64,000 bases of DNA from Octopus vulgaris (taxonomy: Eukaryota): the NCBI GenBank assembly GCA_951406725.2, contig OX597842.1:7254001-7318000 (forward strand). The letters run 5' to 3'. Below are positions 6,001 through 39,000 of the stretch, in pieces (position 1 is the stretch's first letter; every line of letters begins with the position of its first letter). Made by a program: the position numbers.

Positions 6001-9000
6001 AAGGGCTCGATATGAATCACGACTATAAGATACCCAGTTTTGGTTAAACTGCACCGCAAAATGTGGGTGTAGTTAGGAATCTAAATCGTAGGAGACAGAC
6101 ACACAACCTTACTTTTATATATAAAGATAAGGTTTCCAAGATTGGTAGAAGGGAGGGAAAGTGTCTCTCAAACTGAAGACTTGGTCTTGGTAAAAAAACT
6201 TCTCTGAAAATACAAGAAAAATAAAAAGGCCATGAGGAGTCGTATGGGATGCCTAAACCAAAATTTTGCCTTTTCTTTATAGATTCTTGAAAGGATGAAA
6301 GACAAAGTTGACCTTCGCAGGATTTGAACTCGGCGTACTGAGGGAACAAATTCTGCATGACATTTTATTGGATCCAGATAATTTACCTCATTGTTTATCA
6401 TTAAGGTAGGCCATGGTGGGATTTGAATTTGGAGCATTAAAAAGCAGAACTAAATAATCTTTTCTACTTTGGTTACGAGGCCTGAAATTTTCAGGAAGGG
6501 GGCAGATCAATTATATGGACCCTATTGCTTAACTCAGTGGTTCTCAACCAGGGTCCATATAAGGTGTTGTTATTAAAATTTATCTGCAATAAATTGCTTG
6601 GCTCAGTGGTTAGAGTGTCAGGCTTGCAATCATGAGGTAGTGAGTTCGATTCTTGGACTGGGCTGTGTTGAGCAAGACACTTTATTTCACATTGCTCCAG
6701 TTCACTCGGCTGTAGAAATTAGATGCAACTTCTCTGGCGCCAAGCTGTATTGACCTTTGCCTTTCCTTTGGATAACATTAGTGGCATGGAGAAGGGAGGC
6801 TAGTATCTATGTTTGTTCCTTCTCGAGCCATGCCTGGCTCATATGGGCCGGTTTCCCGGTCTCTTGGCATATAGGATTCCCACCTGGACAGGACACCGGT
6901 CTGTCGCAGGTGAGCTGCAAGATGCAGGAGAAAAGAGTGAGAGGAAGTTGTGGCATAAGAGTCAGCAGTTCTTTTTAATGTTCCAAATTCAAATCCCACC
7001 ATGGCCTACCTTAATGATAAACAATGAGGTAAATTATCTGAGTCGGATGTCCTATTATAGCCATCCCTTATATATATATATATAGGGAAATGTGTTGTTG
7101 AAAATGCAGATAAATTTCAAAAACACGTAATTGTTTAAAATACATTTATTTTCAATGGTTAGAATTATTTACTTTAATAAAATAAAATAATTTATTTAAA
7201 AAGGTTAAACAACAATTTGGGAAGACGATAGTCGATACACAGTAGGATGGAATGTCGGAGTCGTGATCAGTGTGTAAGGACTAGTTCTTTGTTGATAGCC
7301 ATTATGTTTACATGAAAGAACGATGGTTGAAGTGGTGAAGAAAACATTTATCTACCGTTATGTTGAAAATACCTTACCTTGTCAGGTAAGTTATAAAATT
7401 TGAGAGCATGTGAAAGAAAGTTAGATGTGGTAGAATTTTTCTTTGTACAATTTTGTGTACATGTTCTCTTAGCAGTGAGCCACTGATAGCAATGGAATGA
7501 TTTTGTTAGGGAACAGATGTAGAGCTAGTGAAAGTGGTAGGGTTGTGGGATGTTGTCTCACAGTTGCTGACATTAAATTTCATTTCTCTTCCTGACCATT
7601 GTCTTTAGTACCTGCCATGATTGGGATCATGATTCTAGCGTTCCGTTCCCTAACTCATGGTAGCTGTCTCTGACTTGGTTGAGTTGTCACAAGCCAACTG
7701 ACTAACTGTCTTTTTGCTTGAGGTTCTTGCTTTTATAACTATCCAGGATAGACCTATCGTTGAGAACAATGTGCTTTGTTGGTGGTACTGTGATATCTCT
7801 ATTCTAGCTTTTGGTGAAGTAGAAGAGGTTAGAAAGGGTCAAGTGGTGAAGACATTATTTTGGCCTAGCTAAAGGCATCTGGAAAATGTAAAACTGCTGT
7901 CAGAGAGAAACCATTGTTCCATCATCATCATCACCATCATATAACGTCCGTTTTCCATGCTAGCATGAGTTGGACAGTTCAACCAGGGTCCAGGAAGCCA
8001 GGAGGCTGCACCAGGCTCCAGTCTGATCTGGCAGTGTTTCTACAGCTGGATGCCCTTCCTAACAACAACCACTCCGTGAGTGTAGTGGGTGTTTTTATGT
8101 GCCACTGGCACAGGGCCAAATGAGGCTGGCAACGGCCACAATTGGTTGGTGTTTTTTACGTGCCACCAGTACAGAAGCCAGTCAAGGATGACTGTGGTAC
8201 TGCTACGCCAGCCATTGGGTATGACTCCATCATGAGCTACCTGGTTTACAATTTGGGTGACCAGACAATAGCCCACGCCACAAGATGTTTTAAGCATCTC
8301 AGCAGTGAATCCTGATGGCCTCATCTGATTTTTGATTTGTTAAAATACTAAATACTGGTGACTTTTTTTTGGTGGTCAAGCTTGTCGTTCTGCTTATTGG
8401 CTTCCCTGTGGAAGTTAAGCTAGTTTGACCTATGTAGTCCCCACCACATCCTCCACATTTGAGAAAATAGATTAAGTTCTTCAAAGCACATTATGGTAAA
8501 AATTTGACTTGATTTAAATTTGTATGTTGAGCCCTCAAAGGGTAAGATGCAAGTTCCACAGTTGGGGCCGTTGTACTTTTTGACTTGTAATTTTTTTTCA
8601 AGTTCTTGGAGTCGCTTTTATCAGGTTTTAGGGATTTGATGCCATCGTGCAAATTATGGGGCACAAAAGAAAAAGCACCAACCAATCCTTTCTTGCGTGC
8701 TATACCAATTTTTTCTAGATTCTCCATAGGCTAATTATGATGAGAGCATAAAGGATGACTCCAGCAAAGAAGAATATGCAAAGGCTTATTGCTATACGCT
8801 CGCCATTGCTGAGTCCTTCTGATGTAGCAACTTTAAAATCTTTTGTTGCTTCATTATCTGCAAAAAATGAACAGTAAAGCATATATCTTTTGTTTTTGAT
8901 AATAAAGAAAAAATTGTAATATTTACCAGGATTTACTATTTTGCCACATACCGAAGTTTAGAAATAGCAGCCATAGAACCTTAGCTATTTCCTCTACTCT

Positions 9001-36000: not shown

Positions 36001-39000
36001 TTTTATGTGGCAATGGCACAGAAATCTTGCAGGCCAATCTTCTTCAGCAGGGGAGTGACCTTAACATATCTGCTGTGGAGTACGGCTCTCTTGAGTACAG
36101 CAAGGCCCCAGGCATTTTGCTTGTTTGTCATCTTGTCTGAAAGGCAAGTGGGAGTTGTAGGGTGTGGGATGTTGTCTCACAGTTGCTGACAGTAAACTTC
36201 ATTTCTCCTTCTGACTAAGGTTCTAGCTGGTCAGCCAATACTGAAGGATTACCCACTAAAAAATAGAGCAAAAACAAATGAAAACTTACCATAAAAAATT
36301 GTAAACAAGGCAAAGAAGAAGAAGATGAATAGCTGACTGTCCATAATCTGAAAAATAATTTTTAAAAAGAGTGAAAACTTGTTGTCTCAGTCCCATCAAT
36401 GGGAGGAACTGATAATATTTTAGGTCTTATTTTAACTCCTTTTATTTTCAGAATTTCAGTCCCTATGTCTTCTGATGTCACTTACTCTCTCCTCCATTTC
36501 CCAAAACACAAAATAACAAGAAGCTATTCATGTCAGATGTCTACTTAACAATCATGATGACATTGCTGTGGTATTTAACATTAGGTTATATAAACGTATA
36601 TATATAAAAGGCATCGTGTGTGTGTGTACGTGAATGTAATTTATGCACATCCACAAATTAGCAAGCATGTTGCTCCAATTTTAGGAGGACATTCGTCATG
36701 ATCCTAGCTATATTTTCGTCAAATTATTTTCCCCTGAGGCACCAGCAAATAGCGCTAAAATAAATTTTCGACCTTAACTTAACAATTTTCACAGCAGAGA
36801 AATCCACCATTGTTTATACAAACACGAGTCAAATCCCCTTCTAGCAACGGTGTAGAGAGAGAGAGAGAGAGAGAGAGAGAGAGAGAGAGAGAGAGAGAGA
36901 GAGAGAGAGAGAGAGAGAGAGAGAGAGAGAGAGAGAGAGATCACTGATTTTTAAAATTTCGTCTTTTTACTGAGTGATTGACAGGCAAAAACAGACAGAA
37001 AGGTGTTGTTATGTATGTATGTGTGAATGACTTCAGTCACACACATACACACGAACATGTATGCATACAAAACACAAAACACATATAAACGATATTCTCC
37101 GTTTCTCCACAACTAATTTCCTAATTTGCTGAATCCGTTGCTCTACTCATAGCAATATATAGCTGTTCGTGCATGAACATGGGAAAGAGCAGGGGTTACC
37201 AGAGCAAAAGACCCACATGTTGACTGTAGACATGCTCCTTCGCAAACGATCGGCTAATATTTTGTAAACAATGTTTCAAAACTGTCCATGTTTTCGAAAG
37301 GAGAGATCTGACTCTTTTCAACCATAACGTCTACCAATTTTGATGTATTTTGTTCAAACTTGATGCCAGGATTACTTAGGACTCATGGGATCTTTGAATG
37401 CTTTAAGTTCTCCAAAAACGAAAAAAAAAAAAAACAATCGATGAGCGGAAAAAATAAAGAAAGCAATTCCTAATGGGATTTCCCAATCAAATTGTCTGCA
37501 AAATTTCAGCCAAAAGTTTACCAATTTCAATGGATTTCACTCAAATTTGACGTCGATGTTACTTAGTTTGCTTTGAAATAAAGAGCTTGATTAGCTTAAT
37601 AATCCTAACTTAATCCCGAGCAAAGCCAGGCTATACTGCTAGAATACGTATATTTCTAAGTATATCTCTACTGATTTTCTATAGAATTTCAGGTAAACAG
37701 TGAATCTTATGATGTTTCATATACAAATATGTTTATGTAAATGATGTTATTAGAGACAGAAAAGATAGGTAATAGGTGTATGTACATATTTCGAGAGTTG
37801 TTGTCCTTTCATCAGCACCACATCCTACCCATCGACTATCCATGATGCCTAAAAGTGTTACACAGTGGGACTGAACCTGGAATCATGTGGTTGGGAAGCA
37901 AACTTGCTTGGTTTTAATAGTATTAAAATAGATTGTATTTGTATTTTATGGTCAGATCAAGGATCTCATCAAAGGCTGATGAAACCTGCTGCTCGTACCA
38001 TGTAAACAAGTGAAGAAAATATATAGTGCATGTGTTTATTTGGCAAAAAAATTTAAATAACCATCCTGAAATACAATATATATATATATAACGGGAAGGT
38101 TTACGAAAATAAACAAAAGACGAAGGCAGGTGGAGTACAAACAAACAATTGTATTAGTATGGCGCTCAGGAATAGAAATAAAACAAGTCATTTACGTTTC
38201 GAGCCTACGCTCTTCGACAGAAACATACACAGAAAAGAAACAAGGAGAGAAAAAAAATGCGTGCAGGAGCTAACGATTCAACATGGCGTTCTGATTTCAG
38301 CCAGAAGTCAGAGATCAGACGAAAGACACTAGAGGGATAGTAGGGGACATAACAGGGTCAAGTGACCTCGCCCCAACATAAGGGTGCGTGTGTGTATAAG
38401 AGAGTATGTATGTGCATATGAAAGAGGGCTGGTGGTCTGGACGTGTGTATGTATGTATGATGTGATGTGTAATGTCGTATGGTGTAGTGTAGTGTCGTAT
38501 AGTGTAGTGTAGTGTGGTGTGATGTAGTGTAGTGTGGTGTGATATTGTGGGGGTGGCGACAGTGGGGAAAGCCCATGTGGGGTGTGCGTTCGGCTGGGGG
38601 TTGGGGTAGAGTGGGGGTTGTGGGGAGAGGAAGGGAGGGGGAGGGGAGAGAAGGGGAGTGAGGGAGCAGAGCAAAAGAGAGAAGGGAAAGAGGGAAGAAG
38701 AAAGAAGAAAGAGAGTAGGGATGAAAAGATGAAGGACTGAAGAGAAGTAGGAGTCGGGGGGGGGAGGCTAGATGAAAAAAAATGGGGGGGTGTGAGACCA
38801 AATGGCGTAAAAGAGCGAAGAGAGAAAATTAATCCCTGTTCATGGCGCAAACGGGAATCTGGATGGCCTCTGTACAAGGACAATCCGAACACAGAAAGGT
38901 GTTCCAAGGAGTGATCGGTGGAGCGGAAATGGCATGAGACCGGTGTGTCATTGGCCAGGCGGATGTCTCGGAGGTGTCCCGCGAACCGGTCAGCCAAGCG

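What the first reader, a model, noticed from the sequence alone, without database searches (positions are those of the whole stretch)
8715..36344. Hidden tandem family of two-domain Ig-like membrane receptors built from micro-exon + 252-bp cassettes
Seen: two intact six-exon minus-strand genes (8715..15007 and 28762..36344), each encoding signal peptide, [micro-exon + Ig-like exon] x2, stalk and TM. All five introns have GTAAG donors and are phase 1, and the frame is open for 260 aa in both copies despite heavy TE traffic in the introns. The ORF track shows only the 252-bp exons. Established: phase-1 symmetric exons are typical of Ig-superfamily genes, and tandem variable Ig receptors serve invertebrate immunity or allorecognition (Hydractinia Alr, snail FREPs, amphioxus VCBPs). 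Inference: I do not recognise this protein as a named family, so it is a candidate lineage-specific variable recognition receptor.
Basis: partly seen in the sequence, partly recalled or inferred. Interest (0 to 1): 0.88.

Follow-up and report, generated by a model that had tools for sequence, protein, structure and literature searches.

The report
Octopus-specific tandem Ig-like membrane protein genes
Two neighbouring copies of an octopus-only gene for a small cell-surface protein with two antibody-like domains; the gene model is real and already annotated as "uncharacterized", and its coding parts change faster than its introns.

Summary
Both minus-strand genes (15007..8715 and 36344..28762) have six coding exons of 55, 39, 252, 42, 252 and 143 nt. 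All donors are GTAAG, all introns are phase 1, and each CDS is 783 nt. They lie in a 20-kb tandem duplication.

The genes are not hidden. Octopus sinensis LOC115225395 (260 aa, "uncharacterized") has the same five junctions and is 93-95% identical to copy B's domain exons. All 27 named relatives are Octopus proteins, many on one contig per species.

Pfam does not call the window's exons Ig. AlphaFold models (pLDDT 92.7 and 82.2) match only Ig domains in Foldseek. Each micro-exon encodes strand A.

- **Copies A and B:** exons differ at 26/783 sites against 61/4722 in the gene's introns (P=1e-4), with 22 nonsynonymous and 4 synonymous changes.
- **Cassettes D1 and D2:** exons are 56% identical, flanking introns 85%, and two intron islands are near-perfectly conserved.

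This fits a fast-evolving surface recognition protein. An immune or allorecognition role is untested.

The parts
14953..15007 (-). Gene A exon 1: ATG plus hydrophobic signal-peptide-like leader (18 codons + 1 nt), donor GTAAG. An AG lies 3 nt upstream of the ATG, so a non-coding 5' exon is possible.
14159..14197 (-). Gene A exon 2: 39-nt micro-exon (SQCERVYKIIKK), phase 1-1. It encodes strand A of Ig-like domain 1 and one Cys.
   Evidence: Strand A at residues 28-31 of the P0002 model.
13121..13372 (-). Gene A exon 3: 252-nt exon, strands B-G of Ig-like domain 1 (D1). Four N-x-S/T sequons.
10503..10544 (-). Gene A exon 4: 42-nt micro-exon (WQCKKEYKIGILK), strand A of domain 2.
9936..10187 (-). 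Gene A exon 5: 252-nt exon, strands B-G of Ig-like domain 2 (D2).
8715..8857 (-). Gene A exon 6: stalk, about 24-residue hydrophobic segment, a 2-residue tail (RI) and stop TAG.
   Evidence: Helix 230-259 in the P0002 model.
36290..36344 (-). Gene B exon 1 (identical to A).
35738..35776 (-). Gene B exon 2, micro-exon (2 nt differences from A).
35318..35569 (-). Gene B exon 3, D1 (14 nt and 11 aa differences from A).
30547..30588 (-). Gene B exon 4, micro-exon (identical to A).
29980..30231 (-). Gene B exon 5, D2 (8 nt and 6 aa differences from A).
28762..28904 (-). Gene B exon 6, stalk and TM (2 nt differences from A).
13406..13437 (-). Conserved 32-nt intron island about 34 nt upstream of the D1 acceptor. 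Identical copies lie at 10217-10248, 30261-30292 and 35601-35632, one before each of the four domain exons.
   Evidence: (4 matches, 0 mismatches, 0 expected)
13063..13120 (-). Conserved intron head directly after the D1 donor. It is 57/58 identical to the one after D2 (9878-9935). Its 25-nt core also occurs at 29951-29975 and 35289-35313. Read through, it gives GKEMTSANNNNNNSF followed by a stop.
   Evidence: The same read-through tail ends unrelated-locus proteins P0005, P0007 and P0010.
1..15842 (.). Tandem duplication unit 1 (cut by the window start). It pairs with 20117..38090 at 96.5-99.1% identity in the long aligned pieces (95.2% across the D1 exon); period about 20.1 kb.
20117..38090 (.). 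Tandem duplication unit 2. It carries about 2.1 kb extra (about 33172-35287) in the intron after D1.

Best explanation
The interval holds two young tandem paralogues of an Octopus-restricted, unnamed family of small type-I surface glycoproteins.

The layout is a signal peptide, two divergent Ig-like domains (nearest to I-set, without the canonical B-F disulfide), a short stalk, one membrane-spanning helix and essentially no cytoplasmic tail. Each domain is built from a phase-1 cassette: a 39/42-nt micro-exon for strand A plus a 252-nt exon for strands B-G.

Shown here: the gene structure, the fold, the family and its clustering, and that coding exons diverge faster than their introns.

Inferred: the ectodomain is a recognition or adhesion surface kept diverse by selection. 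Lacking a tail, it would act as a ligand or adhesion partner, or signal through a co-receptor. The near-invariant intron islands around every domain exon would serve cassette splicing, or a read-through secreted form.

Which partner it binds, and whether the role is immune, neural or reproductive, is unknown.
For: **Structure**
- Searches give the exon model.
- The public 260-aa O. sinensis protein has identical junction residues and is 93% (D1) and 95% (D2) identical to copy B.

**Fold**
- The window's D1 exon modelled with 17 relatives gives pLDDT 92.7 and pTM 0.82.
- All 50 listed Foldseek PDB matches are Ig domains: obscurin, titin, twitchin, Kirrel3, NCAM2, CD58, PD-L1 and antibody V domains. 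TMq is 0.52-0.76 and the best E is 1.5e-3.
- Full-length P0002 gives pLDDT 82.2 and matches tandem Ig structures at E about 3e-7.
- A profile of the four exons also reaches V-set and I-set proteins P0022 and P0026, at E 1.7e-10 and 2.4e-8.

**Family**
- 32 representatives at E<=1e-3, about 27 of them of this architecture with 1-4 domains.
- All 27 named relatives are Octopus sinensis, vulgaris or bimaculoides and carry no functional name.
- Many lie on one 21.3-Mb (sinensis) or 34.6-Mb (vulgaris) contig.

**Fast exons**
- A against B: 26/783 exon differences against 61/4722 in the gene's introns (Fisher P=1.2e-4).
- D1 alone: 14/252 (P=1.8e-5).
- 22 nonsynonymous and 4 synonymous changes.
- 9 of 11 D1 replacements fall in the C-C' and F-G segments, which are 29 of 83 residues (P=0.002, a post hoc test).
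- Two of the replacements remove N-glycosylation sequons.

**D1 against D2**
- Exon 139/249 identical, flanking introns 353/414 (P=1.6e-16).
Against: - No expression, splicing or binding data were available.
- A against B: a split of 22 nonsynonymous to 4 synonymous is what neutrality predicts (site ratio about 4:1). The case for selection therefore rests on the comparison with introns, not on dN/dS (1.38 from small counts).
- Exon synonymous divergence is also above the intron rate: 4/152.5 for A against B, and pS 0.64 for D1 against D2 where introns differ by about 15%. Positive selection alone does not explain that.
- The A/B variants are shared in mosaic fashion with P0001 and P0002. This points to old variation or gene conversion.
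- Pfam does not reach its cut-off on the window's exons (I-set 13.1 against 23.7 bits).
- No PDB sequence matches at E<=1.
- Foldseek E-values for the single domain are all above 0.001.
- Signal peptide and TM rest on hydropathy and model helices only. A GPI anchor signal is not excluded.
Confidence: 0.6

Rival explanations
1. There is no diversifying selection. The exons are old and are kept distinct by ordinary purifying selection, while the introns and flanks are repeatedly homogenised by gene conversion or unequal crossing-over. That homogenisation would act between cassettes and between tandem copies. On this reading the 'fast exons' are really 'young introns'.
For: - Synonymous sites are as diverged as expected for old exons: pS 0.64 for D1 against D2, while introns are 80-98% identical.
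- On the domain tree, D1 groups with P0007 and D2 with P0010. Both are representatives of other 50%-identity clusters, so the D1/D2 split is old.
- A-type and B-type residues recur in mosaic in P0001 and P0002.
- winA_D1 pairs with P0001_d2 and winB_D1 with P0002_d1 (supports 94/51 and 93/88).
Against: - Homogenisation would have to stop at both boundaries of four exons per gene.
- The 14 D1 differences are spread over nt 20-232 and do not form one tract.
- The intron head is also kept in proteins of other loci that end by read-through (P0005, P0007, P0010, P0027). That looks like constraint rather than local conversion.
- Even under this model, selection must keep the copies different.
Confidence: 0.3
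2. The copies are drifting, redundant duplicates on the way to pseudogenes. The open frames would be a short-term survival after a recent duplication.
For: dN/dS between the copies is about 1 (1.38, with 22 nonsynonymous and 4 synonymous changes). Noncoding divergence is only 1.28%, so the duplication looks recent.
Against: - Both copies keep all 10 splice sites, the ATG and a 783-nt open frame.
- Neutral drift predicts exon divergence equal to intron divergence, not 2.6-4.4 times higher.
- Intact relatives exist in three Octopus species.
Confidence: 0.08
3. The second copy is an assembly artefact: two haplotypes of one locus laid side by side.
For: The copies differ by only 1.28% in substitutions and are directly adjacent.
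Against: - No gap lies between the units; the only N run is at 57481-57580.
- The copies differ by several large indels, including about 2.1 kb.
- A partial third unit follows at 41541-42167.
- The O. vulgaris model P0001 strings together pieces of at least three units. These include both micro-exon-2 variants seen here.
Confidence: 0.05
4. The tandem genes are not independent. The phase-1 cassettes would be mixed by alternative or inter-genic splicing into many isoforms, with the conserved intron islands as the control elements.
For: - The paralogous O. sinensis loci LOC115225115 and LOC115225116 carry isoform labels up to X16 and X8.
- Those isoforms differ by whole domain cassettes, by an alternative first domain, and by an alternative C-terminus without the TM segment.
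- All cassettes here are phase 1-1.
- Each domain exon is bracketed by near-invariant intron islands.
Against: - No transcript data exist for this locus.
- LOC115225395 is listed with a single 260-aa product.
- P0001 reads micro-exons in the wrong frame, so it is an annotation error and not evidence.
- No base-pairing above shuffled controls was found, either between the islands or between them and the rest of the pre-mRNA.
Confidence: 0.2

Closest known systems
Octopus sinensis LOC115225395 (P0002) and its Octopus paralogues (LOC115225372, LOC115225115/116; O. bimaculoides A0A0L8I036; O. vulgaris 'hypothetical predicted proteins')
   Same: Same length (260 aa), same five junction residues and same domain order. 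P0002 is 93-95% identical to copy B's domain exons. The relatives share family motifs and cluster on one contig per species.
   Different: None of them has a name or a described function. Other members have 1-4 domains, extra Cys pairs and longer cytoplasmic tails. The window's copies match no database protein exactly.
Hydractinia Alr family (unusual IgSF genes in a histocompatibility complex; PMC9546547, seen as search listing and start of abstract only)
   Same: Clustered, lineage-restricted genes. Their Ig-like domains escape standard sequence criteria and are recognised by structure prediction.
   Different: No sequence comparison was made. The octopus proteins have two domains and almost no cytoplasmic tail. 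No polymorphism or allorecognition phenotype is known.
CD2/CD58/CD48-type two-domain adhesion molecules (properties recalled, not tested)
   Same: Small two-Ig ectodomain. The membrane-distal domain lacks the canonical disulfide, the tail is short or absent, and recognition in that family uses the GFCC' face. CD58 is among the fold matches (rank 20, E 6.7e-3).
   Different: There is no sequence relationship: no PDB sequence hit at E<=1. The nearest folds are I-set domains of muscle proteins. This is an analogy only.
Snail FREPs and amphioxus VCBPs
   Same: Invertebrate, multi-copy, Ig-like ectodomains.
   Different: No fibrinogen or chitin-binding domain is present. The last exon has only stalk and TM, and Pfam finds nothing. 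Membrane anchoring also differs from those secreted proteins (their secreted nature is recalled).
Genes with exons evolving faster than introns, such as snake-venom PLA2 and conotoxins, and MHC loci with homogenised introns (recalled, no paper read)
   Same: Coding exons are more diverged than the adjacent introns.
   Different: The product here is a membrane Ig-like protein. The cause, whether selection or intron homogenisation, is unresolved.

Membership tests
Immunoglobulin superfamily (fold level) | Two-sheet Greek-key beta sandwich of about 7-9 strands | tested here: met
   AF2 of the window's D1 exon gives pLDDT 92.7 with 7 strands. All 50 listed Foldseek PDB matches are Ig domains, TMq 0.52-0.76. 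The P0002 model matches tandem Ig structures at E about 3e-7.
Immunoglobulin superfamily (sequence level) | Score above the Pfam gathering cut-off for an Ig family (I-set, V-set, ig, Ig_2/3) | tested here: not met
   Window exons: the best hit is I-set at 13.1 bits against 23.7, E 0.1, for 1 of 4 exons. P0002 has no family. Paralogue P0003 scores 23.6 against 23.7. Precomputed PF07679 sits on 4 of 23 listed relatives. No PDB sequence hit at E<=1.
Immunoglobulin superfamily (classical hallmarks) | Conserved Cys in strand B and Cys in strand F forming the core disulfide | tested here: not met
   Predicted strands B (8-11) and F (65-69) of the D1 exon hold no Cys. The Cys residues lie at 33 and 37 (D1) and at 33, 38 and 74 (D2), plus one in each micro-exon.
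Immunoglobulin superfamily (classical hallmarks) | Invariant Trp in strand C | tested here: met
   W24 of the exon (W56 of P0002) is invariant in 22/22 and 17/17 aligned sequences. It lies in predicted strand C, residues 22-25.
Unnamed Octopus family typified by LOC115225395 | Significant sequence similarity, same architecture (signal peptide, Ig-like domains, TM) and same exon junctions | tested here: met
   E 6e-76 and 3e-54 for one exon. 93-95% identity to P0002. Junction residues G, G, G, G, D as predicted.
FREP (fibrinogen-related protein) | C-terminal fibrinogen domain after the IgSF domains | tested here: not met
   The last exon encodes only stalk and TM. Pfam finds nothing there or in P0002.
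VCBP | Two V-type domains followed by a chitin-binding domain; secreted | tested here: not met
   No chitin-binding domain is present, and a hydrophobic C-terminal anchor is.
Hydractinia Alr-like allorecognition receptors | Homology to Alr domains; extreme allelic polymorphism; cytoplasmic tail with signalling motifs | not tested
   No Alr sequence was compared and no population data were available. The tail here is 2 residues, which does not fit a signalling tail.
Dscam-type mutually exclusive cassette splicing | Docking and selector RNA complementarity between conserved intron elements | tested here: not met
   Duplex energies between the upstream and downstream islands have z between -0.6 and +1.5 against shuffles. 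The best pairing of either island anywhere in gene A's pre-mRNA is no better than that of shuffled elements.

The most novel reading that the evidence does not exclude
The array is a diversity-generating receptor locus. Phase-1 Ig cassettes, each bracketed by near-invariant intron control elements, would be combined by alternative and inter-genic splicing. These elements are conserved even between paralogues whose exons share under 50% identity. Meanwhile the exons themselves are driven apart, at synonymous sites too, by diversifying selection or an exon-focused mutational or conversion process. The result would be a variable Ig-like surface repertoire for octopuses, used for self/non-self, pathogen or neuronal identity recognition.
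Probability: 0.12. Interest if true: 0.85.

Novelty: new variant of a known kind. Interest (0 to 1): 0.5.

Why it matters
Cephalopods have no described variable Ig-type recognition system, and their lineage-specific gene families are mostly uncharacterised. This is a clustered, Octopus-restricted Ig-like family that standard domain searches miss.

Three features stand out:
- An unusual split of each domain into a strand-A micro-exon and a 252-nt exon.
- Exons that diverge faster than their introns.
- Near-perfectly conserved intron islands around each domain exon.

If the exon divergence reflects selection for diversity, the family is a concrete candidate for surface recognition in octopus. 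It could be tested with existing RNA-seq, population data and binding assays. If it reflects intron homogenisation, it is still a clean case of that process inside a gene.

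Tried and rejected
- **Pfam on the five larger exon translations:** only sub-threshold hits, I-set at E 0.1 and YafO_toxin at E 0.014, taken as chance.
- **PDB sequence search with the domain profile:** 0 hits at E<=1.
- **RNA pairing between the conserved intron islands, or between them and the rest of gene A's pre-mRNA:** not better than shuffles. 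The docking/selector idea was dropped.
- **Rfam on 8600-15100:** only two mir-297 matches far below threshold, in a simple repeat. The islands are not a known RNA.
- **Homodimer test of D1** (P0002 residues 20-116, two copies): no verdict, score 0.02 against a mark of 0.32. This is not evidence either way.
- **ESM Atlas look-alikes of P0002:** small Ig-like membrane glycoproteins, including adenovirus E3 CR1 and chordate V-set clusters, at 0.88-0.92. These are leads only.
- **The listing of cluster members:** not available. Names of 18 unnamed family representatives therefore stayed unknown, and presence outside Octopus is not excluded.
- **Pfam on intronic and flanking ORFs thought to be transposon remnants:** 0 of 10 and 1 of 6 matched. 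'Penelope-like / GIY-YIG' for 8299-8730 and 38329-41481 is therefore only a recalled resemblance.
- **Literature:** searches on octopus Ig-like or lineage-specific families and on six gene or protein identifiers found nothing on this family. One preprint opened for 'IgSF' was irrelevant.
- **Joined protein left out:** the window's exons were never joined into one protein for a search or a fold. That step was left out, and the public protein P0002 served for the full-length model.
- **Not available:** eukaryotic genome or read collections.

Full report
**1. What is there**

A self-comparison shows that window 1..15842 and 20117..38090 are two units of a tandem duplication with a period of about 20.1 kb. 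The long aligned pieces are 96.5-99.1% identical, and the piece across the D1 exon is 95.2%. A piece of a third unit follows at 41541-42167. The only N run is at 57481-57580, so no gap separates the units.

Each unit carries one minus-strand gene. Reading the strand, scanning for phase-1 micro-exons and matching copy A to copy B gives these exons:

| Exon | Gene A | Gene B | Length (nt) |
|---|---|---|---|
| e1 | 15007..14953 | 36344..36290 | 55 |
| e2 (micro-exon) | 14197..14159 | 35776..35738 | 39 |
| e3 (D1) | 13372..13121 | 35569..35318 | 252 |
| e4 (micro-exon) | 10544..10503 | 30588..30547 | 42 |
| e5 (D2) | 10187..9936 | 30231..29980 | 252 |
| e6 | 8857..8715 | 28904..28762 | 143 |

- All ten donors start GTAAG, all acceptors are AG, and all introns are phase 1.
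- Each CDS is 783 nt, i.e. 260 codons and a stop.
- An AG lies 3 nt before the ATG, so an upstream non-coding exon is possible.

**2. The genes are real but not hidden**

- The four 252-nt exons are the only ones of their kind in the window. D1 and D2 are 37-40% identical in protein, with E about 1e-15.
- Searched alone, the D1 exon finds two public proteins. One is Octopus sinensis LOC115225395 (P0002, 260 aa, "uncharacterized protein"). The other is an O. vulgaris "hypothetical predicted protein" (P0001, 415 aa).
- P0002 has exactly the predicted order and junction residues...FFY-G-SQC......IKK-G-SFV......KEE-G-WQC......ILK-G-NPV......GKE-D-NET....
- P0002 is 93% (D1) and 95% (D2) identical to copy B.
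- P0001 strings pieces of at least three units together. It starts with both micro-exon-2 variants of this window read in the wrong frame, so it is a faulty model. It is nevertheless independent evidence for a tandem array.
That step was left out, and P0002 stood in for the full-length protein.

**3. The family**

- A profile of the four domain exons, scored against 1.84 billion representatives, gave 32 proteins at E<=1e-3 and 19 at E<=1e-10.
- About 27 of the 32 are proteins of this architecture, with one to four repeats of the domain. Most have a signal peptide and a TM segment, and some have short tails.
- P0032 is a zinc-finger chimera. P0022 and P0026 are ordinary V-set and I-set proteins.
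- Every relative that carries a name (27 different proteins) is from O. sinensis, O. vulgaris or O. bimaculoides. None has a functional name.
- Many share one contig: 21.3 Mb in sinensis, holding LOC115225115, -116, -372 and -395, and 34.6 Mb in vulgaris.
- Names of the other representatives could not be looked up, so the family's range beyond Octopus is open.
- No paper in the library holds the six identifiers tried. Topic searches found nothing on this family.

**4. Fold**

- Pfam does not call the window's exons Ig: the best hit is I-set at 13.1 bits against a cut-off of 23.7. P0002 has no Pfam family.
- No PDB sequence matches the domain profile at E<=1.
- The D1 exon, modelled with 17 aligned relatives, folds confidently (pLDDT 92.7, pTM 0.82) into seven strands.
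- All 50 listed Foldseek matches are Ig domains: I-set domains of obscurin, titin and twitchin, Kirrel3, NCAM2, CD58, PD-L1 and antibody V domains. TMq is 0.52-0.76. The best E is 1.5e-3, and none is at or below 0.001.
- The full-length P0002 model has pLDDT 82.2, with about 90 in both domains. It matches tandem Ig structures at E about 3e-7.
- That model places a strand in each micro-exon (residues 28-31 and 125-129) and helices at 3-19 and 230-259.
- Weak sequence links agree: paralogue P0003 scores 23.6 bits on I-set, and four relatives carry a precomputed I-set domain.
- The canonical strand-B and strand-F cysteines are absent. The strand-C tryptophan is invariant.
- The ectodomain exons carry two to four N-glycosylation sequons each. 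Exon 6 has a 19-residue window of mean hydropathy 2.87 followed by two residues.
- Taken together, this is a divergent two-domain Ig-like type-I membrane glycoprotein with no real tail. A GPI signal is not excluded.

**5. Exons change faster than introns**

Between copies A and B:

| Region compared | Differences | Rate | Fisher P against gene introns |
|---|---|---|---|
| All aligned noncoding sequence | 179/14027 | 1.28% | - |
| Introns of the gene | 61/4722 | 1.29% | - |
| All exons | 26/783 | 3.3% | 1.2e-4 |
| Two domain exons | 22/504 | 4.4% | 7e-6 |
| D1 exon | 14/252 | 5.6% | 1.8e-5 |

- By Nei-Gojobori counting, 22 changes are nonsynonymous and 4 synonymous, giving dN 0.037 and dS 0.027.
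- That ratio alone is what neutrality gives. The excess over introns is the signal.
- In D1, 9 of 11 replacements lie in the C-C' and F-G segments, which are 29 of 83 residues (P=0.002, a post hoc test).
- Two replacements remove glycosylation sequons.
- In D2 the six replacements lie elsewhere, in strands B and E and at the end of the domain.
- The variant residues recur in mosaic in P0001 and P0002.

Between the two cassettes of one gene the contrast is larger:

- The domain exons are 139/249 (56%) identical, with pS 0.64.
- The aligned flanking introns are 353/414 (85%) identical: 42/46, 127/152, 127/158 and 57/58 (P=1.6e-16).

**6. Conserved intron islands**

- A 32-nt island about 34 nt upstream of each domain exon is identical in all four cassettes.
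- The 58 nt after the donor are 57/58 identical between D1 and D2 of gene A. The 25-nt core of that stretch has 0-1 mismatch in all four cassettes. Neither island occurs anywhere else in the window.
- Read through, the intron head gives GKEMTSANNNNNNSF and a stop.
- Nearly the same tail ends P0005, P0007 and P0010, and in altered form P0027. Their domains are only 37-63% identical to D1 (P0007, P0010, P0027) or 1.4 substitutions per site away on the domain tree (P0005). The element is therefore kept across distant paralogues.
- In copy B, the 2.1-kb extra stretch cuts this element after about 31 nt.
- On the domain tree, D1 groups with P0007 (97/86) and D2 with P0010 (100/98). The D1/D2 split therefore predates those paralogues.

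**7. Reading**

The safest statement is that these are two young tandem members of an unnamed Octopus Ig-like surface-protein family.

The exon/intron contrast has two possible sources. One is diversifying selection on the ectodomain. The other is old exons held apart while introns are homogenised. The high synonymous divergence and the mosaic variants favour a share of the second. The exon-wide spread of changes and the family-wide conservation of the intron head favour constraint and selection. Either way, selection acts to keep the domains different, which fits a recognition or adhesion role.

Isoforms of the paralogous loci LOC115225115 and LOC115225116 carry labels up to X16 and X8. They differ by whole cassettes and by a C-terminus that lacks the TM segment. 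Cassette splicing is therefore plausible in this family, and the intron islands are candidates for its control. I found no RNA pairing that would suggest a Dscam-like mechanism, and no known RNA family.

An immune or allorecognition role remains a guess. The protein is not a FREP or a VCBP, because the required domains are absent, and it lacks a signalling tail.

**8. What stayed unchecked**

- Splice junctions by reads, tissue expression and polymorphism.
- Presence of the family in other cephalopods, and the species of the window.
- Supplements of papers were not needed.

Noticed in passing
window 52997-57480, next to the N run 57481-57580: A 67-bp satellite of about 66 copies in three adjoining arrays, at 90-99% match, running straight into the assembly gap.
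   Followed up: partly
window 43501-44144 and 46189-46635, around 44530-45987 (-): Two long (GATA)n arrays flank a 485-aa open frame. That frame has reverse-transcriptase and zf-RVT matches (Pfam E 5e-5 and 6e-8), so it is a non-LTR retrotransposon remnant.
   Followed up: partly
window 38329-41481 (-): G+C rises to 0.50 with GC skew of +0.4 to +0.5. A run of long open frames is present, one with a motif that I recall as GIY-YIG-like (Penelope-type element). Pfam found nothing in 4 of 4 frames, so this is unconfirmed.
   Followed up: partly
window 41541-42167: A piece of a third duplication unit, 98% identical to 444-1072 and to 20560-21188, but with no third gene. No further domain exon was found by tblastn.
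   Followed up: partly
window about 33172-35287 (intron after D1 of gene B): About 2.1 kb that is absent from copy A. It includes 4.5 copies of a 107-bp tandem repeat (33719-34203) and cuts the conserved intron head after about 31 nt.
   Followed up: partly
window 8299-8730 (-) and 28292-28777 (-), directly after the stop codons: Repeat-derived open frames begin at the stop codon of both genes. Related copies of the neighbouring stretch 7920-8180 lie at 49633-49893 and 61084-61346. In P0001 the C-terminus runs four codons further (…WRMKKKLV) than here (…WRI stop), so the tail length varies between copies.
   Followed up: no
public protein P0001 (O. vulgaris): The model begins with micro-exon 2 of two different array units read in the wrong frame, then fuses parts of further units. 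This is an annotation error caused by the repeated phase-1 cassettes.
   Followed up: yes
window 10599-10833, 12716-13063, 13536-13943, 30643-30885, 32816-33163, 57652-58045: Copies of one SINE-like repeat, 85-88% identical. I read a tRNA-like head in it by eye, not confirmed by a tool. One copy splits the intron between micro-exon 2 and D1 of gene A.
   Followed up: no
public proteins of O. sinensis LOC115225115 and LOC115225116: Many annotated isoforms (labels up to X16 and X8). They differ by whole Ig cassettes, by an alternative first domain, and by a C-terminus without a TM segment.
   Followed up: partly
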